From Formosa sp. Hel1_33_131 (GTDB taxonomy: Bacteria > Bacteroidota > Bacteroidia > Flavobacteriales > Flavobacteriaceae), in contig NZ_CP017260.1 in assembly GCF_001735745.1 (NCBI RefSeq), positions 2,700,001 to 2,732,000 on the forward strand: a stretch of 32,000 bases of DNA, written 5' to 3'. The first letter of the stretch is position 1. Each line of letters opens with the position of its first letter. Made by a program: the position numbers and the translations under genes. Shown piece by piece: positions 6,460 to 12,401 of the stretch. Below the pieces are notes generated by a model. It saw only the letters and a list, made by a program, of their open reading frames with translations, did no database searches and was not told the origin of the DNA.

Positions 6460-7071
6460 ATGCCTTTTAAAAAATTACATTCTGATATTCGAGAGAAATT
6501 AGAATCTCTAAACATACAAACGCCAACGCCATTTCAGAGCAGCAGCATTCCCATTATTAAAAGTGGTGTGAATGTATATTGCACCGCTCCTAAAGACAGT
6601 GGTAAAACAACCACCCTTGTATTGACTACCTTACAAAAGTTAAAATGTGAGGCTGACGGAAATGCGCCTAGAGCCGTTGTTCTTGTAGAAAACAAGGAAC
6701 GGGCGATGGAATTATACGAAACGTTTTTAGCCTATACAAAATACAATTCTTTACGCGTTTATGTAGGGCATGAACAGCTGCATATAGACATTCAGAAATC
6801 GGAAATATTTGAGGGTACAGACATTCTTATTTCTACTCCCAAAACAATGAATAAGTTGTTCTTATTAAATGGTGTCAGCACTGCACAATTAAAAATAATC
6901 AGTATTGATGATGCGGAATTTCTTTCGCAACACTCCTCCTATTCGGCGATTATGTCGATTTCTCAGAGTATCCAAAAATGTCAATATGTCATTTACTCAG
7001 AAAAAATGACTAAAATGCTTGAGCGTTTTGAATCTTATTTTATGGAACGTTCAAAAATCGTTTCTTTTTAG
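6460..7071 (+). CDS. Stand-alone DEAD-box helicase domain-1-like protein with degenerate motifs
   Basis: 203 aa. It has a Q-motif-like TPFQ, Walker A APKDSGKT, a PTRELA-position KERAMEL, STPKT for TPGR and DDAE for DEAD. No RecA domain 2 is present. Confidence 0.65.
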   Translation: MPFKKLHSDIREKLESLNIQTPTPFQSSSIPIIKSGVNVYCTAPKDSGKTTTLVLTTLQKLKCEADGNAPRAVVLVENKERAMELYETFLAYTKYNSLRVYVGHEQLHIDIQKSEIFEGTDILISTPKTMNKLFLLNGVSTAQLKIISIDDAEFLSQHSSYSAIMSISQSIQKCQYVIYSEKMTKMLERFESYFMERSKIVSF

Positions 7072-7101: not shown

Positions 7102-7737
7102 ATGATACCTAAATTACATTATATTTCACAGGGGAATTCGCCCAAAGCACATCTGGATCACATTCAAAATGCCTGTGCAGCAGGTGCGGAATTAGTCGTG
7201 TTAAACCTTCAAAACAGTTCTGAAAAGAAGTATTTAAAAATAGTGAAACAGGCAAGAGAGATCACGTCTCATTTTCAAACACGTTTAATTATTAGCGCAC
7301 ATTATAAAATAGCTAAAGAACTAAAAGTAGATGGCATCCATTTAGATTTTACATCGCCCTGCCCTACTATTATTCGAAAAGAGTTACTCCCTTGGCAACT
7401 GATTGGAGCGACCGCAAACAACTTGCAAGATTGTGAGACTTACATCGAAAAGGAAGTCGATTATATATACTTAGCACCATTTAGAGCAAAGGAAGACATT
7501 CAAGGAACTCCATTAGGCTTGAACGGTTTTACCGCAATTACAGAAGCCTTAAAAACCGAAACGCCTATTATTGGCGTTGGAGGGATCACTACAACTGATG
7601 TTACAGCCATCTTAGAAACCGGAATTTCTGGAGTTGGGGTTTCTGATGAAATCACACAAGATTTTAATACCATAAAAACATTTAACCAACTATTGACGGC
7701 TTCTTCAACAGAAGAACAACGCCATTCGTTTCAATAA
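7102..7737 (+). CDS. thiE: Thiamine-phosphate synthase family protein (ThiE/TenI-like TIM barrel)
   Basis: KLHYISQG...AGAELVVLNL...GIHLD...IGATANN...YIYLAPF...IIGVGGIT...GISGVGVS matches the ThiE/TenI pattern. No thiamine-pathway genes neighbour it. Confidence 0.6.
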   Translation: MIPKLHYISQGNSPKAHLDHIQNACAAGAELVVLNLQNSSEKKYLKIVKQAREITSHFQTRLIISAHYKIAKELKVDGIHLDFTSPCPTIIRKELLPWQLIGATANNLQDCETYIEKEVDYIYLAPFRAKEDIQGTPLGLNGFTAITEALKTETPIIGVGGITTTDVTAILETGISGVGVSDEITQDFNTIKTFNQLLTASSTEEQRHSFQ

Positions 7738-7771
7738 ATGACTGTAGGAGTTGTTAGGTTAAATTAAGTTA

Positions 7772-8953
7772 TTACGCTAACAAATCATATTTGTTACTTG
7801 GAGGAAATAATAAATTTAAACTATTGTCTTTTAATTTAAATAAAGGTCCTTTTTCTGCGCCTCCACCAGTTGGAGTTCTTTTGATTAAATGATCTACTGT
7901 AATTATTCCTTGTTCTAAAAGTAAATCAAATTGTGAGATAATTGGTTTTCTTGTGTGTTCAACTAGTTTATATTGAAAATGTTCTTTGCCTCTTATTTTA
8001 ATACTATCAGCAGCGATCCAAAATGTTTCTTTATGTTTCTCTAATAGTCGTTGATGTAATTTTTCCAGAGTCCATACAACAAAATCACCAACTTCTTTTT
8101 TGTCCGAAGTTTCTATTAAATGGTTTATATCTGAATTAATTTTTAATGAGAGACCTTGTGAGTTGACTACAATAGTAGATAAAGTACAATACAATTTAAA
8201 AGCACTTCCTCTGCTATAACCGAACTCATTTAATATCTCTGTTGAATTTTTAAATTTGCTTAATGTCCAATCTGGTACTTGAGCAAATAAATTCTTCCGA
8301 TTCCCTTTTGAAGATCGATAAGATTTCAGTTCAATTCCTTTGTAATCTGGTAATTTAGAAGAATTAATATCTATTCCCAAGGCTGTTTCTAAAGTACGTC
8401 CAACAGATGTATCAGCATTAACCATTGAAGGAATTGGACCTTTCTTAGCAATTGTTGTTAATAAGCCTAGTAATTCATTCGCAATTACATTTTCATTATA
8501 ATTAATTTCTTGTACTAATTCTTTTAAGGGGTTAGAATTAACACCATTTATTAATTGGCTAACTGGCAGTTGAGTTACATTGATAATGTGAATTACACCA
8601 TCAAAACAAATTAATCCTAGAACATCATTTGGTTGTGTGTGTTTAGATATTTCTGAAAACCATATTCTTGGATCTCCTGTTTTTGTCTTAGGCCTGTATA
8701 ACGAAGTTTTGGATTTTAAAACAGAATTTACATCATAAATTAAAGCATCAATAATTATTTTATGATCAGGACCTTGAAGTTGTAAGCTATAATCGTGAAA
8801 GTTATTAGTTCTTAAATAATTCCTTACAGTTCCGGTTGCATCCATTATAGACTTCTTAAGTCCATTTTCAGTAGGTTCAATTAAAGTTAAGGAGATTGAG
8901 TTTTTAGTTAAAACCTTAAGCTTATCTTCTTCTTGGGGAGTTAATAATCTCAT
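7772..8953 (-). CDS. Putative type II restriction endonuclease: MutH/Sau3AI/MvaI-BcnI-like PD..ExK core in the C-terminal half, unassigned N-terminal domain
   Basis: Residues ~184-212 (GRTLETALGIDINSSKLPDYKGIELKSYR) match the MutH-family pattern G..lE..LG....s..PD...ELK(S/T). The start codon overlaps the methyltransferase stop codon (ATGA). Confidence 0.6.
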   Translation of the reverse strand: MRLLTPQEEDKLKVLTKNSISLTLIEPTENGLKKSIMDATGTVRNYLRTNNFHDYSLQLQGPDHKIIIDALIYDVNSVLKSKTSLYRPKTKTGDPRIWFSEISKHTQPNDVLGLICFDGVIHIINVTQLPVSQLINGVNSNPLKELVQEINYNENVIANELLGLLTTIAKKGPIPSMVNADTSVGRTLETALGIDINSSKLPDYKGIELKSYRSSKGNRKNLFAQVPDWTLSKFKNSTEILNEFGYSRGSAFKLYCTLSTIVVNSQGLSLKINSDINHLIETSDKKEVGDFVVWTLEKLHQRLLEKHKETFWIAADSIKIRGKEHFQYKLVEHTRKPIISQFDLLLEQGIITVDHLIKRTPTGGGAEKGPLFKLKDNSLNLLFPPSNKYDLLA

Positions 8954-11163
8954 TTAATGTGTTTCAAAATTTCAATTGCAACTGCTCTAGCCATTAATGG
9001 AGGCACTGCGTTTCCGACTAATGTATATTGGGGCAGTTCGGTTTTTCTATTATTTCCGCCCGTTGAACGTTTTCCTTGAAAAACGAATGAATCATCAAAT
9101 GATTGTAACCTTGCCATTTCCCTAACAGTTAATGCTCTTGGTGAGTTATAGTGAATGTAATCATCTGGAATAGTCATAACCGTAGGACTTTGATTCTCTG
9201 GTTTTAATACATTGTAATTTCTTTTATTAGACGATAAACCACATTCATTTAATTTATTTTGTGCTTTTTTATAATTTCCTTCTTTTAAAATTATATCAAG
9301 TCGTTTAATTACATCCTCTCCTTGGTTACTTGTTTTATGATTATGAAGTAGGTCATAAACTTTTTCTCCATTATTAAGAGCTAATTCACTTTTTACATAA
9401 AAAGGTTTGGTTGCTTTTTCAAATCGACCGTTTAGCCGACCTCTCTTACTCCATTCTGCAAAAGTTTTCCCTTTAGTTTTTATGAGTTTACCATCAATTG
9501 AACGAGCCTTAATTAGACCTTTCATTTTTTTAGCAGTTACATTATACTGTTTAGAAATATCTACTGACTGATATTGGTGAGCTTCTTGATTATTGCCAAT
9601 AAAATCTAAATCATAAAGCGCTTCGAAAACAGAAACCTTCTCTTCTTCCTTAACAGTAGCAGGAATCTCAGATATGAATTTTTGATCTTTTCTACACCCT
9701 ATAAATAAAACACGCTCTCTATTTTGTGGTACTCCATAATTTGATGAATTTGCTACAAATGGCGCTTCTATTTTATAAAGTCTTATATCACTGATAATTG
9801 TATCTAATTCATTGCTTTGTTCTTTGTCACAATAGGCACGAATCATTGTGAGACAATCATCAATATTTAGGACATATATTTTCAATGCTTGTATTATATC
9901 GTCACAAGATTTCTTAAAGTCTTTTACTACATTTAATCCATCAAATGCTTCTTCGACTTTATTGATTATTTCATTTGAATCAATATCCGTGAGGAATTGA
10001 GTGAAAGAATCTACAAAGAAATCGTTATCAATATTACAAAAATCCTTTTCACGAATAATATCTCGTTTAAGTTTTTCCCATTCTTTACTTCTAGCTAAAA
10101 TATTAAAACCGTGTCTGATCGTGCTAATTCTTTCATCCGTTTTACTCGTTTTGTAGTCAACAATATCTGGAGTTAACTTTCTGAACTTAGCATCAATTGT
10201 TCGTATATAAACTTCTTTCACTTCTTCAATTTTAGAATCCGTAAACTGTTCAATTTCAATTCTTTTAATCAAACAATCTAACAAGAAACCGTTATCTGTA
10301 TTAGTCGTTTTTAAAGATTTAATAAAAGAGGCTAAACGAGGGATTTCTTTAATATCAACAATGGAATTAATTTCTTTTAGAATTAGTTCTTTTATTTTCC
10401 CTTTTTCCTTTGTTAAAATTCCTTTTACATTCTCCATAATAAAGTACTTGGGCTGAAGTACTTTGATTACTCCCAAATAATGAGCAAATAAATCATCCTT
10501 TTTATCAAACTTCTTTCTTTTGCCTGCTAAACTAAAACTCTGACAAGGAGGGCCTCCACAAACTACGTCAACTTTTTTGCCTTTGGTTTTCGAAATTAAA
10601 TTATCCAAAAAATCAGGTTCTGTAATATCTTGACATAAAAAATCCGCATCCAATCCTAATTGATGATTGTATCTTACTATATGAGTTAATTCAGAGTTAT
10701 CATTTATATCATTTGCTACAAGAAAATCAAAGAATTTATTGTTATGCTCTGCTTGTAAAAAACCTTCACTAAAACCGCCCGCACCTGCAAATAAATCAAC
10801 AAACGTAAACGGTTTACCGTATAGAGGGATTTGTTCCCTTACAATGTTAACATTGTGATTCTCTTTGTAAGCTTTTACAAAACCATGTAACTTTGTTTTG
10901 ATTTCATTATTAGTATAACTTTTTTTATAGGAATTGTTTAGTAGTTCATCTGCCCTCTCCTTTAAATAATTCAAATAATGGTTAATTTCAGTAGATCTTT
11001 CTGAGTTTTGTTTTACAGTTTGAGTTTCCTTATCAAAATCTTGCCGTTTTATTTTTTCTCCAGTTGATAATTTAATTTGTTCAGAATTACAATTAATCCT
11101 TAAGTGAATTGGAGAGAATCCTTTTTTATTTGATTTATCGAGATAGAAGTTTATTGTAGCCAT
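8950..11163 (-). CDS. DNA (cytosine-5)-methyltransferase with an N-terminal integrase-type Arm DNA-binding-like domain and a large internal insertion
   Basis: C5-MTase motifs: I FVDLFAGAGGFSEGF (aa 121-135), IV GGPPCQSFS (aa 203-211), VI ENVKG (aa 244-248), VIII QNRER (aa 480-484), IX RALTVREMARLQSF, X GNAVPP. The N-terminus, MATINFYLDKSNKKGFSPIHLRINCNSEQIKLSTGEKIKRQDFDKETQTVK...EINHYLNYLKER, follows the Bacteroidota tyrosine-integrase Arm-domain pattern. Confidence 0.9.
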   Translation of the reverse strand: MATINFYLDKSNKKGFSPIHLRINCNSEQIKLSTGEKIKRQDFDKETQTVKQNSERSTEINHYLNYLKERADELLNNSYKKSYTNNEIKTKLHGFVKAYKENHNVNIVREQIPLYGKPFTFVDLFAGAGGFSEGFLQAEHNNKFFDFLVANDINDNSELTHIVRYNHQLGLDADFLCQDITEPDFLDNLISKTKGKKVDVVCGGPPCQSFSLAGKRKKFDKKDDLFAHYLGVIKVLQPKYFIMENVKGILTKEKGKIKELILKEINSIVDIKEIPRLASFIKSLKTTNTDNGFLLDCLIKRIEIEQFTDSKIEEVKEVYIRTIDAKFRKLTPDIVDYKTSKTDERISTIRHGFNILARSKEWEKLKRDIIREKDFCNIDNDFFVDSFTQFLTDIDSNEIINKVEEAFDGLNVVKDFKKSCDDIIQALKIYVLNIDDCLTMIRAYCDKEQSNELDTIISDIRLYKIEAPFVANSSNYGVPQNRERVLFIGCRKDQKFISEIPATVKEEEKVSVFEALYDLDFIGNNQEAHQYQSVDISKQYNVTAKKMKGLIKARSIDGKLIKTKGKTFAEWSKRGRLNGRFEKATKPFYVKSELALNNGEKVYDLLHNHKTSNQGEDVIKRLDIILKEGNYKKAQNKLNECGLSSNKRNYNVLKPENQSPTVMTIPDDYIHYNSPRALTVREMARLQSFDDSFVFQGKRSTGGNNRKTELPQYTLVGNAVPPLMARAVAIEILKHIK

Positions 11164-11174
11164 ACTTTATATTG

Positions 11175-11210
11175 CGGACGTTTTTACGGACACGGACAAA
11201 TTTACGGACA
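11175..11210. repeat. Four direct CGGAC(A) hexamer repeats (TGTCCG on the gene strand) just upstream of the methyltransferase start
   Basis: Copies start at 11175, 11187, 11193 and 11205, giving 12/6/12-nt spacing. The gene strand reads TGTCCG-taaatt-TGTCCG-TGTCCG-taaaaa-CGTCCG-caatataaagt-ATG. Confidence 0.85.
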
Positions 11211-11333
11211 GCAAGTAATATAACCTACTAAAATTTATAATATTTCCATTTACCCTGTTCAATTCACATCATCACTTTTGCTCAACATCCATAATAAAAA
11301 TTCAAAAAACTCCAAGTTAGAACAGAAATCGTT

Positions 11334-11341
11334 TATCTTTG
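11334..11341 (+). promoter_or_regulatory. Bacteroidota -7 promoter box (TATCTTTG)
   Basis: Exact TAnnTTTG match 115 nt upstream of the ATG at 11457. The long implied leader lowers confidence. Confidence 0.3.
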
Positions 11342-11456
11342 TGAGGATACCTGCAAAAAAACTTTCTGGAAAAAAGATCATTAATTTAGTAATTCCTCTG
11401 TGATTTACGAATTAAGCTATGCTTTTGGACAATTATAAAATTAAAAACGAGGAACT

Positions 11457-12401
11457 ATGAAGAAGGACAGAAGACAATTTTTAAAAAACACCACACTTGC
11501 GGTTATCGCGATGGGTGCATCTCCCTTACTAACAAAGGCTGATACTGGTAAATCTAGGGATCTATCAAATGTAAAACCACAAGAAGCCTGCAACCCGTTA
11601 ACACAAGATTACTATGGTACGGGGCCATTTTATACACCCAATGCGCCGATTAGCTCTGATGGTGTGATGATGCCAAGTGATGAAGTGGGAGTCCGTTTAA
11701 AATTATCGGGAATTATTAAAAATTTAGACTGCACAGAAGTCATTCCTGATACCGTATTGGACTTATGGCATGCCAACGACGCCGGTGCTTATGACAATAC
11801 AGGTTTCAGCTTGAGACGAAAAATCATATCTAACAGTGCGGGTTTTTATAATTTAGAAACTATTTTACCTGGAAAATACTTGAACGGCAGTAGCTACAGA
11901 CCCAGTCATATTCATGTGAAGGTGACCACTCCTGGGTTTTCAACTTTTACAACTCAACTGTATTTTGAAGGCGATACGAGTATTGCTGGAGACGCCGCTG
12001 CGTCCATTACTTCTGGTACTTTTGATGCCACAGATCGTATTATTCCTCTTGTGGATAATGCGGGTGTTTTAGAAGGCACATGGGATGTTATTGTCGATGG
12101 AGATGGCATTCTTTCTGCAGATGATTTACACCTCACAAATGGGATGATTTACAACGTGAGCCCCAATCCATTTACAGATCAAGTGACTATTAATTATGGT
12201 GTTTTCAAGTCCTCAAAAGCACGTATAGAAATTTATAATTTGCAAGGGCAACTCGTCGCCAATGTAGAAAATAAACAACTGAATGCAAATAAATATTCAG
12301 CCGTTTGGAGACCAGAACCGTTTATGGCTTCTGGACTTTATTTTTGTGTGTTAAAAATTAATGACCTTCAAGTACACTACTTGAAAATTTTGAAGAAATA
12401 A
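11457..12401 (+). CDS. Intradiol ring-cleavage dioxygenase-like protein with a Tat signal peptide and a T9SS C-terminal sorting domain
   Basis: Twin-arginine motif DRRQFLKNTTLAVIAMGASPLLTKA. Dioxygenase core LDLWHANDAGAYDN...YRPSHIHVKV. C-terminal ~85 aa (SPNPFTDQVTINY...IEIYNLQGQLV...ASGLYFCVLKI) matches the type A Por/T9SS secretion tail. Confidence 0.8.
   Translation: MKKDRRQFLKNTTLAVIAMGASPLLTKADTGKSRDLSNVKPQEACNPLTQDYYGTGPFYTPNAPISSDGVMMPSDEVGVRLKLSGIIKNLDCTEVIPDTVLDLWHANDAGAYDNTGFSLRRKIISNSAGFYNLETILPGKYLNGSSYRPSHIHVKVTTPGFSTFTTQLYFEGDTSIAGDAAASITSGTFDATDRIIPLVDNAGVLEGTWDVIVDGDGILSADDLHLTNGMIYNVSPNPFTDQVTINYGVFKSSKARIEIYNLQGQLVANVENKQLNANKYSAVWRPEPFMASGLYFCVLKINDLQVHYLKILKK

What the first reader, a model, noticed from the sequence alone, without database searches (positions are those of the whole stretch)
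7738..11456. AT-rich two-gene restriction-modification island between housekeeping genes
Two genes (C5-MTase then nuclease, minus strand) form a translationally coupled unit. The MTase stop and nuclease start overlap as ATGA at 8950-8953. The unit sits between a ThiE-like gene and a dioxygenase-like gene. Hand counts of single 60-nt lines gave roughly 25-33% GC inside the island (lines 8401, 9901, 10261) and 37-48% outside (lines 12001, 24001, 28201), which fits horizontal acquisition. Both proteins have non-standard architectures (see the next two findings) and a repeat array precedes the operon. This makes the locus the most likely place in the window for an undescribed defence variant. No integrase, tRNA or flanking direct repeats are visible, so the insertion mechanism is unclear.
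Basis: partly seen in the sequence, partly recalled or inferred. Interest (0 to 1): 0.7.

Follow-up and report, generated by a model that had tools for sequence, protein, structure and literature searches.

The report
Inserted restriction-modification cassette with self-regulating methylase
This is a real, horizontally inserted two-gene restriction-modification (DNA cutting plus protective methylation) cassette of a kind common in Bacteroidota; the system itself is ordinary, but its methylase carries an integrase-type DNA-binding domain matched by an almost invariant repeat in its own promoter, and its nuclease carries an unnamed domain shared with other anti-phage proteins.

Summary
Two minus-strand genes, a 737-aa C5-methyltransferase (8950-11163) and a 393-aa MvaI/BcnI-family nuclease (7772-8953), overlap by ATGA. 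GC is 30.1% against 36.4% for the rest of the window, and GC3 lies 4-5 sd below the other genes. Close relatives have the ThiE-like and dioxygenase genes directly adjacent, so the pair is a ~3.7 kb insertion. No tRNA or junction repeat was found, and no integrase is annotated nearby.

It is a Type II R-M cassette, already annotated generically. The pair is kept in all 80 loci fetched from at least 152 species genomes, in different contexts.

Three details are unstudied.
1. The methylase has an N-terminal Arm-type DNA-binding domain. Four GTCCGT repeats (11174-11210) overlap a Bacteroidetes -7 promoter box and are nearly invariant in 74 loci. I infer autorepression like M.SsoII, using a different fold.
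2. The nuclease's N-terminal 160 aa form a domain with no Pfam or PDB match. The same domain is fused elsewhere to TIR, DruF-like, HerA/DndH-like and GHKL proteins. The layout parallels the Type IIE enzyme UbaLAI.
3. The methylase has a 200-aa helical insert.

The target is possibly CCWGG, but this is unproven. Verdict: new variant of a known kind, moderate interest.

The parts
7738..7771 (.). Left junction: 34-nt spacer between the ThiE-like stop codon (7735-7737) and the nuclease stop codon (7772-7774)
   Evidence: Similarity to the empty site (L090) and to the RND-containing variant of the same species (L083, L089) ends at the ThiE-like stop on one side and at the nuclease stop on the other. 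No target-site duplication is visible.
7772..8953 (-). Restriction endonuclease gene, 393 aa, two domains
   Evidence: ORF. It is paired with the methylase in all 80 genome loci. Homologues are 64-100% identical across Bacteroidota.
7805..8461 (-). Nuclease catalytic domain (aa 165-383), MvaI/BcnI family
   Evidence: Pfam PF15515, 236 bits against a cutoff of 25. The only PDB sequence relative is MvaI 2oa9, with the motif pDYKGIELK aligned to pDFHDIEIK. P202, D203, E208 and K210 are invariant in 38 homologues.
8462..8953 (-). Nuclease N-terminal domain (aa 1-164), signature SLYRPxTKxGDPRxW, no named family
   Evidence: It has no Pfam match and no PDB sequence match. It is found in 655 clusters at 50% identity. 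Besides MvaI/BcnI nucleases it is fused to a HerA/DndH-like ATPase, a GHKL ATPase, a DruF-like protein, a MerR-HTH protein and an LRR-Roc-COR-TIR protein. In the AF2 model, aa 41-155 have pLDDT 65-89 and form about 7 strands and 2 helices.
8950..8953 (-). ATGA overlap of the methylase stop and the nuclease start (translational coupling)
   Evidence: Read directly. In most of the 80 loci the end of the methylase match coincides with the start of the nuclease match.
8950..11163 (-). C5 cytosine DNA methyltransferase gene, 737 aa
   Evidence: Pfam PF00145, E 6e-52; TIGR00675, 155 bits. Motifs I (FAGAGG), IV (GPPCQ), VI (ENV), VIII (QNRER) and X (GNAVPP) are invariant in 32 homologues.
10909..11142 (-). 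Arm-type DNA-binding domain of the methylase (aa 8-85)
   Evidence: PF17293, 29.8 bits against a cutoff of 22.6, covering profile positions 3-83 of 87. AF2 gives pLDDT 79-90 for three strands followed by helices. The first 26 residues are nearly invariant in 75 sequences. The domain is absent from the methylases that partner the proteobacterial homologues of the nuclease.
9769..10362 (-). All-helical insert of about 200 aa (aa 268-465) between methylase motifs VI and VIII
   Evidence: The Pfam match is split into aa 119-267 and about 451-736. AF2 predicts helices with pLDDT 79-93. No Pfam family matches it. It is absent from the 470-aa Phaeobacter partner methylase.
11174..11210 (-). Putative operator: four direct GTCCGT repeats, read on the minus strand as TGTCCGTAAATTTGTCCGTGTCCGTAAAAACGTCCGC
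   Evidence: The pattern is unique in the window. About 36 nt are at least 90% conserved per position in 74 distinct loci, while the sequence further upstream diverges. There are 137 pattern hits within 80 nt upstream of the methylase gene and 5 elsewhere in about 1 Mb. GTCCG density is 51.6 per kb there against 0.26 per kb elsewhere.
11197..11227 (-). Putative Bacteroidetes-type promoter: -7 box TAAATTTG (11197-11204) between repeats 1 and 2, and a weak -33-like TAG (11225-11227) 20 nt upstream
   Evidence: A box of the form TAnnT[TC][TC]G (a relaxed form of the -7 consensus) lies between repeats 1 and 2 in 67 of 74 loci. T[TA]G lies 19-20 nt upstream in 48 of 74. The consensus TTG-N19-TAnnTTTG comes from my own knowledge of Bacteroidetes/Flavobacterium promoters. 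No transcription start data exist.
11211..11443 (.). Right junction region; similarity to the empty site resumes at about 11430-11444 (AAAACGAGGAACTATG, just before the dioxygenase start at 11457)
   Evidence: Alignment with L090. Similarity to other copies of the cassette ends about 106 nt upstream of the methylase ATG.

Best explanation
The locus is a Type II restriction-modification cassette of about 3.7 kb, acquired horizontally and inserted between the ThiE-like and dioxygenase genes.

Shown by the evidence:
- The cassette has one promoter-proximal C5 cytosine methyltransferase gene and, overlapping it by ATGA, an MvaI/BcnI-family PD-ExK nuclease gene.
- Both genes have intact catalytic motifs.
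- The pair is conserved as a unit across Bacteroidota, in unrelated genomic contexts.
- Close relatives of this host have the site empty.

Inferred mechanism:
1. The operon is transcribed from a Bacteroidetes-type promoter whose -7 box lies between the first two of four GTCCGT repeats.
2. The methylase's own N-terminal Arm-type domain binds these repeats. Once enough methylase has accumulated, it blocks RNA polymerase. Methylase is thus made first on entry into a new host, and both enzymes are then held low. This is the logic of M.SsoII, M.EcoRII and M.MspI autoregulation, carried out with an integrase-type fold and direct repeats instead of an HTH and a palindrome.
3. The nuclease cuts unmethylated target DNA with its C-terminal MvaI-like domain, probably as a monomer that nicks each strand in turn.
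4. Its N-terminal domain acts as a second DNA-binding or sensor module that tethers or activates the enzyme. This parallels the monomeric Type IIE enzyme UbaLAI, which has the same N(1-164)+C layout.
5. The recognition sequence is possibly CCWGG. This is a weak inference.
For: Identity of the genes and their coupling.

Insertion:
- GC and GC3 are outliers.
- The site is empty in relatives L090-L094.
- The same locus in the same species sometimes also carries a 6 kb RND efflux cluster.
- The cassette sits in different neighbourhoods in Polaribacter, Parvicella, Flagellimonas and Confluentibacter.
- The methylase is 74-90% identical between different orders and classes of Bacteroidota.

Operator:
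- The 36-nt block is nearly invariant in 74 loci, whereas the proteins are only about 70% identical and the adjacent DNA diverges.
- The motif is enriched about 200-fold at this position and is unique in the window.
- It overlaps a TAnnTTTG box.

Link between the Arm domain and the repeats:
- The domain scores above the Pfam threshold, is modelled confidently, and its sheet-forming first 26 residues are nearly invariant.
- In six proteobacterial plasmid systems with a homologous nuclease that keeps the N-domain, the methylase lacks the Arm domain and the repeats are absent.
- So the repeats track the Arm domain, not the nuclease N-domain.

Precedents:
- The M.SsoII N-terminal domain binds a site at +7 to +21 of its own gene and represses it (PMC6100179).
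- UbaLAI has an effector domain at aa 1-164 and an MvaI-like domain at aa 165-405, and recognises CC/WGG (PMC5766183).

CCWGG hint:
- MvaI is the only PDB sequence relative.
- A single conserved CCTGGAC lies 62-73 nt upstream of the methylase start in 6 of 6 proteobacterial homologous systems.
Against: - No binding, transcription, methylation or cleavage data exist for any member of this family.
- Covariation between the Arm domain and the repeats could not be tested, because both are nearly invariant in all loci I could reach.
- The -33 element is weak: TAG in the window, and a match in only 48 of 74 loci.
- The nuclease N-domain shows no sequence similarity to UbaLAI-N or EcoRII-N, and Foldseek found no B3-like match. 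The Type IIE analogy therefore rests on layout only.
- Both AF2 models are poor overall (pLDDT 49 and 56).
- The word-bias test for CCWGG avoidance is uninformative. CCWGG has O/E 0.68, but other G+C-rich palindromes are equally depleted, and relatives lacking the island at this locus show 0.74.
- The methylase variable region does not resemble Dcm.
Confidence: 0.62

Rival explanations
1. It is an ordinary Type IIP R-M pair with no self-regulation. On this view the conserved 36-nt block is simply the promoter and leader that travels with the cassette (core promoter, UP-like or translation-initiation signals), and the Arm-like domain and the nuclease N-domain only add non-specific DNA affinity.
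For: The block contains a perfect -7 box, and it must work in many hosts, which alone selects for conservation. No regulator-binding data exist. Pfam support for the Arm domain is modest (29.8 bits).
Against: Promoter function explains conservation of the -7 box, not of four GTCCGT units that extend 30 nt downstream of it. Direct repeats at 12/6/12-nt spacing are typical of protein-binding sites. The repeats and the Arm domain are present together in 74 of 74 Bacteroidota loci and absent together in 6 of 6 proteobacterial systems.
Confidence: 0.22
2. The Arm domain and the GTCCGT repeats serve mobility rather than regulation. The repeats would be arm-type sites at one end of the cassette, and the methylase would help a host or ICE tyrosine recombinase to insert or excise the cassette.
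For: PF17293 is otherwise an integrase N-terminal domain that binds arm sites. The cassette clearly moves between genomes without any recombinase of its own. Many assemblies break just outside the cassette, giving 3.6-4.4 kb contigs. One subgroup has a similar motif in inverted orientation about 100 nt past the nuclease stop.
Against: No tyrosine-recombinase gene appears among the called neighbours of the four contexts inspected; the window junctions, three other chromosomal loci and one short contig showed no inverted or direct terminal repeats. The downstream motif occurs in one related subgroup only, and its count is within chance. The repeats sit 5-14 nt from the start codon, inside the promoter, not at the boundary of conserved sequence, which lies 100-390 nt further out.
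Confidence: 0.05
3. The nuclease N-domain is not a second site-binding effector. It would instead be a sensor of phage-derived or modified DNA (or of another signal), so the nuclease behaves partly as a triggered defence effector rather than a classical restriction enzyme.
For: The same domain is fused to TIR, DruF-like, HerA/DndH-like and GHKL proteins, which are typical defence effectors. An N-domain-LRR-Roc-COR-TIR gene lies directly downstream of the pair in L002. The domain shows no similarity to B3/EcoRII-N effector domains.
Against: The nuclease is coupled to a methylase in 80 of 80 Bacteroidota loci and 6 of 6 plasmid loci. This is the hallmark of self/non-self discrimination by methylation. 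The catalytic domain by itself belongs to a sequence-specific family.
Confidence: 0.1

Closest known systems
MvaI and BcnI (monomeric Type IIP restriction endonucleases; Pfam PF15515; PDB 2oa9/2oaa)
   Same: The C-terminal 220 aa belong to this family (236 bits). The PD...ExK motif aligns with that of MvaI.
   Different: MvaI and BcnI are single-domain proteins of about 240-250 aa. This protein has an extra 164-aa N-terminal domain. Identity to MvaI is low (phmmer E about 1e-3). MvaI's own methylase is an N4-cytosine enzyme (PMC3001055), whereas the partner here is a C5 enzyme.
UbaLAI (monomeric Type IIE enzyme, CC/WGG; PMC5766183; N-domain PDB 5o63)
   Same: The layout and size are almost identical: an accessory domain at aa 1-164 followed by an MvaI-like catalytic domain (405 aa vs 393 aa).
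   Different: UbaLAI-N is a B3-like pseudobarrel related to EcoRII-N. The N-domain here shows no detectable similarity to it by PDB profile search, by hhalign against EcoRII-N or by Foldseek. Unlike UbaLAI-N as described, it is also fused to non-nuclease defence proteins.
M.SsoII / M.Ecl18kI / M.EcoRII / M.MspI-type bifunctional C5 methyltransferases (PMC6100179 for SsoII; the others from my own knowledge)
   Same: A C5 methylase carries an N-terminal DNA-binding extension, and a dedicated, otherwise unique DNA element sits within or just downstream of its own promoter.
   Different: The SsoII domain is a 55-aa C-protein-like HTH that binds a 15-bp palindrome as a dimer, in a divergent M/R arrangement. 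Here the domain is an Arm-type beta-sheet domain, the element is four direct repeats, the genes are co-oriented and overlapping, and binding is not demonstrated.
Arm DNA-binding domains of Bacteroidetes tyrosine integrases (Pfam PF17293)
   Same: The HMM match is above threshold over nearly the whole profile. The predicted structure is a three-stranded sheet plus helix. The domain is associated with short direct repeats, as arm sites are.
   Different: No recombinase catalytic domain follows it; it is fused to a methyltransferase. The repeats lie in a promoter, not in an attachment site.
Homologous R-M pairs on proteobacterial plasmids (Phaeobacter pP75_g, Acinetobacter p10SAAs470 and pA52-1, Moritella, Vibrio, Alisedimentitalea)
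   Same: The nuclease is 41-47% identical over its full length, including the N-domain. The partner is a C5 methylase of the same subfamily (shared PDDxxHY...TVREMARxQSF...TTGG...PQYTQxGNAVPP block).
   Different: These methylases are 470-524 aa and have neither the Arm domain nor the helical insert. The genes are often divergent. There are no GTCCGT repeats; instead a single CCTGGAC lies 62-73 nt upstream of the methylase start.

Membership tests
Type II restriction-modification system | A DNA methyltransferase with a complete catalytic motif set | tested here: met
   PF00145 E 6e-52 and TIGR00675 155 bits. Motifs I, IV (PCQ), VI (ENV), VIII (QNRER) and X (GNAVPP) are invariant in 32 homologues.
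Type II restriction-modification system | A separate endonuclease gene with an intact active site, adjacent to the methylase and inherited with it | tested here: met
   PF15515 at 236 bits, with invariant P202, D203, E208 and K210. The pair is kept in 80 of 80 loci, mostly with the same overlap.
Type II restriction-modification system | Methylase and nuclease act on the same DNA sequence; methylation protects from cleavage | not testable with these tools
   This needs a methylome and cleavage assays. Only indirect hints point to CCWGG.
MvaI/BcnI restriction endonuclease family | Profile match above the curated threshold over the whole domain | tested here: met
   Residues 165-383 match profile positions 4-227 of 227, at 236 bits against a cutoff of 25.
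MvaI/BcnI restriction endonuclease family | Monomer that cuts the two strands one after the other at a pseudopalindromic 5-bp site | not testable with these tools
   This is a biochemical property (PMC1874612, PMC3203586).
Type IIE enzymes of the UbaLAI/EcoRII kind | Catalytic domain plus a separate N-terminal effector domain | tested here: met
   Two-domain layout, aa 1-164 plus 165-393, matching UbaLAI 1-164 plus 165-405 (PMC5766183).
Type IIE enzymes of the UbaLAI/EcoRII kind | Effector domain has the B3-like DNA-binding pseudobarrel fold | tested here: inconclusive
Type IIE enzymes of the UbaLAI/EcoRII kind | Needs two copies of the site for efficient cleavage | not testable with these tools
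   This needs kinetics on one-site and two-site substrates.
SsoII-like self-regulating C5 methyltransferases | N-terminal sequence-specific DNA-binding domain fused to the methylase | tested here: met
   PF17293 at aa 8-85, 29.8 bits against 22.6; AF2 pLDDT 79-90.
SsoII-like self-regulating C5 methyltransferases | That domain is a C-protein-like helix-turn-helix | tested here: not met
   The match is to an Arm-type domain, predicted as three strands plus helices. No HTH family was found.
SsoII-like self-regulating C5 methyltransferases | A unique regulatory site within its own promoter or leader, bound by the methylase, repressing its transcription | tested here: inconclusive
   A unique, nearly invariant repeat element overlaps the -7 box. 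Binding and repression could not be tested.
Arm DNA-binding domain (PF17293) proteins, i.e. tyrosine integrases | Arm domain followed by core-binding and tyrosine-recombinase catalytic domains | tested here: not met
   Only PF00145 follows the domain; no integrase family matched.
Genomic island acquired horizontally | Deviant composition and an empty site in close relatives | tested here: met
   GC3 z = -5.0 and -3.9. The ThiE-like and dioxygenase genes are adjacent in L090-L094.
Genomic island acquired horizontally | Integrase, tRNA target or flanking repeats that explain the insertion | tested here: not met
   No tRNA or Rfam match. No junction repeats. No integrase or transposase family among the four window ORFs scanned next to the pair or among the Pfam annotations of the called neighbours in same-species and other-genus contigs.

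The most novel reading that the evidence does not exclude
The cassette may carry two undescribed functional modules.

(a) A new class of R-M controller: an integrase-type Arm domain fused to the methylase reads four direct repeats laid over a Bacteroidetes promoter. This would be a self-contained, host-independent switch that lets the cassette establish itself across a whole phylum.

(b) A new, widespread DNA-sensing domain (SLYRPxTKxGDPRxW) that defence systems reuse in front of MvaI-like nucleases, TIR, DruF-like, HerA/DndH-like and GHKL effectors.

A further possibility is that the recurrent nesting of Dazbog genes between the methylase and the nuclease in sister loci reflects a functional link between Dazbog and this methylase.
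Probability: 0.4. Interest if true: 0.6.

Novelty: new variant of a known kind. Interest (0 to 1): 0.45.

Why it matters
R-M systems must delay and limit nuclease expression when they enter a new cell. The known solutions are C proteins, HTH-bearing methylases and methylation-sensitive promoters, described mainly in Proteobacteria and Firmicutes. Nothing comparable is characterised for Bacteroidota, whose promoters differ.

If the Arm-domain/GTCCGT pairing is a repressor-operator pair, it is a compact, portable switch that works across the phylum. It would be useful for genetic tools in Flavobacteriia, where R-M barriers hamper transformation. It would also be an example of an integrase domain recruited for transcription control.

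The nuclease N-domain is a candidate new sensor or DNA-binding family shared by several defence effectors. A single biochemical characterisation would therefore annotate hundreds of protein clusters.

The R-M function itself is ordinary.

Tried and rejected

2. B3/EcoRII-N homology of the N-domain. It was not detected by profile search against the PDB or by hhalign. I saw a resemblance by eye between YRPKTKTGDPRIW and the EcoRII C-arm YNSRHFGKTRNEKRITRW; this is only a lead.

3. Inferring the target from oligonucleotide avoidance. CCWGG has O/E 0.68 in 0.69 Mb of host flanks. But GGWCC, CCGG, GGCC, GATC and CTAG are equally low, relatives lacking the island at this locus show 0.74, and there is no deamination signature. 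The test is uninformative.

4. Mobile-element hallmarks. The window has no tRNA and the 22 related loci scanned have none. Neither the window nor the 14 related loci scanned against Rfam has an rRNA match, and no junction or terminal repeats were seen where I looked. Only group II intron fragments occur near two loci.

5. Phage carriage. There is no match in 50,697 phage records.

6. The sigma-70 promoter scan is not above chance and is not appropriate for this phylum.

7. The fragmented methylase in L084 is not evidence of a decayed system. It differs from the window by 14 single-base homopolymer insertions and only 2 substitutions, a pattern I read as sequencing error.

Full report

Yes. The minus strand carries two ORFs: 8950..11163 (737 aa) and 7772..8953 (393 aa). 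The stop of the first and the start of the second share ATGA at 8950-8953.

Pfam gives DNA_methylase (E 6e-52), split into aa 119-267 and about 451-736, plus Arm-DNA-bind_5 at the N-terminus of the first protein. It gives MvaI_BcnI (E 6e-70, aa 165-383) for the second. The neighbours are a TMP-TENI (ThiE-like) protein and a Dioxygenase_C protein with a T9SS sorting tail. PADLOC calls the two proteins Type II MTase and Type II REase. NCBIfam gives the generic dcm superfamily.

A full composition calculation gives:
- GC of 30.1% for 7738-11456 against 36.4% for the rest. This is the lowest-GC 3.7 kb stretch in the window.
- GC3 of 0.168 and 0.203 against 0.329 +/- 0.032 for the 25 other ORFs (z = -5.0 and -3.9).

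**2. Is it an insertion?**

Yes.
- Contigs of the same species, which carry an identical ThiE-like protein, have the same arrangement (L081, L082, L085). Some have an additional 6 kb RND efflux cluster between the ThiE-like gene and the nuclease (L083, L086, L087; also L089, nuclease 94% identical).
- Relatives whose ThiE-like protein is 87% and 80% identical have the ThiE-like gene followed directly by the dioxygenase gene, with 195 and 92 nt spacers (L090-L094).
- More distant relatives (78%, 73%) also lack the dioxygenase gene at this position.
- Similarity between the filled and empty sites stops at the ThiE-like stop codon and resumes about 15-25 nt before the dioxygenase start. There is no duplication or inverted repeat at the junctions.
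- There is no tRNA and no Rfam element in the window. No integrase gene is annotated among the neighbours in same-species contigs.

The spot therefore behaves as a variable region.

**3. How common is the pair?**

Very common.
- The nuclease has thousands of relatives. The best 120 are 69-100% identical and 379-395 aa long.
- The best 120 methylase relatives are 73-100% identical, and almost all are exactly 737 aa, with the same two Pfam domains.
- A scan of one genome per species found relatives in at least 152 genomes. Of the 80 loci returned, all but two are assigned to Bacteroidota: Flavobacteriales, Cytophagales, Bacteroidales, Chitinophagales and Aureispira. The exceptions are a Pseudanabaena and an Alcanivoracaceae MAG.
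- In all 80 fetched loci the methylase gene lies upstream of the nuclease gene, usually with the same one-base-shifted overlap.
- The flanking genes differ in every genus examined, and none of the called neighbours has a recombinase family on record.
- NCBI already names the genes generically.

The kind of system is therefore known and is widespread through horizontal transfer.

**4. The repeat array and the methylase N-terminus**

Read on the gene's strand, the 37 nt ending 11 nt before the ATG are TGTCCGTAAATTTGTCCGTGTCCGTAAAAACGTCCGC. These are four GTCCGT units at 12, 6 and 12 nt spacing.

Evidence that this block is a constrained element:
- GTCCGT-N6-GTCCG occurs only there in the window (2 hits, 0.08 expected).
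- Across 74 distinct loci whose proteins are only about 70% identical, this block is at least 90% conserved at nearly every position, while the DNA further upstream diverges.
- 137 pattern hits lie within 80 nt upstream of the methylase gene, against 5 in the remaining ~1 Mb. GTCCG density is 51.6 against 0.26 per kb.

Position relative to the promoter:
- The spacer between units 1 and 2 is TAAATTTG, which fits the Bacteroidetes -7 consensus TAnnTTTG (my own knowledge). A box of the relaxed form TAnnT[TC][TC]G is present in 67 of 74 loci.
- A weak -33-like T(T/A)G lies 19-20 nt upstream in 48 of 74.

Evidence on the methylase N-terminus:
- It matches Arm-DNA-bind_5 above threshold (29.8 against 22.6 bits, nearly the full profile).
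- It is modelled with pLDDT 79-90 as three strands plus helices.
- Its first 26 residues are almost invariant.

**5. A natural control**

Plasmids of Phaeobacter, Moritella, Vibrio, Acinetobacter and Alisedimentitalea encode nucleases 41-47% identical over their full length, N-domain included. These pair with C5 methylases of the same subfamily that are only 470-524 aa long. Those methylases have no Arm domain and no helical insert.

These systems have no GTCCG upstream of the methylase gene. Instead, all six have one CCTGGAC located 62-73 nt before the methylase start, and it is the only CCNGG in that region. The repeats therefore co-occur with the Arm domain, not with the nuclease N-domain.

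Together with the precedent of M.SsoII, this is my basis for proposing Arm-domain autorepression. The M.SsoII N-terminal domain binds AGGACAAATTGTCCT at +7 to +21 of its own gene and blocks RNA polymerase (PMC6100179). The proposal is inferred, not shown.

The conserved CCTGG in the plasmid systems, and MvaI being the only PDB sequence relative, are weak hints that the family recognises CCWGG.

**6. The nuclease**

The C-terminal domain has the PD-x4-ExK motif (D203, E208, K210) aligned to that of MvaI and invariant in homologues.

The N-terminal 164 aa have no Pfam or PDB relative. An exhaustive HMMER search found 655 clusters. Most have the same N-domain plus MvaI_BcnI layout. Others are fused to:
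- a HerA/DndH-like ATPase,
- a GHKL ATPase,
- a DruF-like Druantia protein,
- a MerR-HTH protein,
- an LRR-Roc-COR-TIR protein, located directly downstream of the R-M pair in L002.

The closest characterised architecture is UbaLAI. It is a monomeric Type IIE CC/WGG enzyme with an effector domain at 1-164 and an MvaI-like domain at 165-405 (PMC5766183). However, its B3-like N-domain is not detectably related to this one. I therefore propose a tethering, effector or sensor role by analogy only.

**7. Other points**

- The methylase has an all-helical insert of about 200 aa between motifs VI and VIII. It is absent from the plasmid homologues. Its role is unknown; oligomerisation on the four repeats is a guess.
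- Attempts to infer the target from word avoidance were uninformative.

**8. Verdict**

This is a genuine, horizontally acquired Type II R-M cassette of a widespread Bacteroidota family.

What is new is at the level of modules: a putative Arm-domain/direct-repeat control circuit, and an unnamed, promiscuous N-terminal domain on the nuclease. Novelty: new variant of a known kind. Interest: about 0.45.

Noticed in passing
L008:2624-4832; also L030, L033, L078, L099; remnant in L075:7481-7998; L105:1-2185: In five sister loci a Dazbog defence pair (DzbA, PADLOC E 3e-95; DzbB, E 6e-51) is inserted between the methylase and nuclease genes, in L008 with overlapping or abutting start/stop codons; the other four were identified by tblastn position only. 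One locus keeps only a remnant. On the Moritella plasmid, DzbA/B homologues lie right after the partner methylase. The recurrence across phyla suggests a functional link between Dazbog and this methylase family.
   Followed up: partly
L002:9205-12570: Directly downstream of the R-M pair lies a 1121-aa protein. It starts with a 36%-identical copy of the nuclease N-domain, followed by LRR, Roc, COR-A and TIR domains. L100 has an LRR-Roc-COR protein next to the pair as well.
   Followed up: partly
L101:8182-10847; L012; L011: A 753-aa GHKL ATPase (HATPase_c_3) and a small receiver-like gene are coupled to the 3' end of the nuclease gene in Flagellimonas and a Flavobacteriales MAG. The cassette often acts as the seed of a small defence island.
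   Followed up: no
L103-L108, 62-73 nt upstream of each methylase start codon: Six proteobacterial plasmid homologues each have a single CCTGGAC at the same distance from the methylase start, and it is the only CCNGG in the region. It is probably the cognate site or an operator overlapping a -35-like TGGACT, which suggests methylation-sensitive feedback.
   Followed up: partly
L083, L086, L087 (8669-14636 in L083); L089:3328-9221: Within the same species, some genomes carry an RND efflux cluster (membrane-fusion protein, a 1443-aa ACR_tran/OEP fusion, and a 134-aa ORF) between the ThiE-like gene and the nuclease gene. The window lacks it. The junction falls exactly at the nuclease stop codon.
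   Followed up: partly
L084:7612-9473 (window equivalent 9387-11243): One contig shows the methylase gene broken into four ORFs. The cause is 14 single-base homopolymer insertions, with only 2 substitutions, all confined to the methylase gene and its upstream region and none in the nuclease gene. This is probably sequencing or polishing error, but the clustering is unexplained.
   Followed up: partly
L020, L023, L025, L026, L029, L032, L036, L043, L054, L067 (whole contigs): In many assemblies, including isolates (Flavobacterium filum, Alkalitalea saponilacus, Seonamhaeicola, Mesonia), the pair sits alone on a 3.6-4.4 kb contig. In that clade about 190-390 nt upstream and 150-330 nt downstream are conserved between genera and contain hairpins. 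Group II intron pieces occur near L043 and L074. The reason for the assembly breaks is not established.
   Followed up: partly
window 11192-11204 (minus strand AAATTTGTCCGT): Part of the operator resembles the right half of the SsoII regulatory site AGGACAAATTGTCCT (PMC6100179), although the presumed binding domains are unrelated. This is probably coincidence.
   Followed up: no
window 6460-7071 (+): A 203-aa ORF contains only the N-terminal DEAD domain, with no helicase C domain. It sits just upstream of the ThiE-like gene and is conserved at that length and position in all relatives examined.
   Followed up: no
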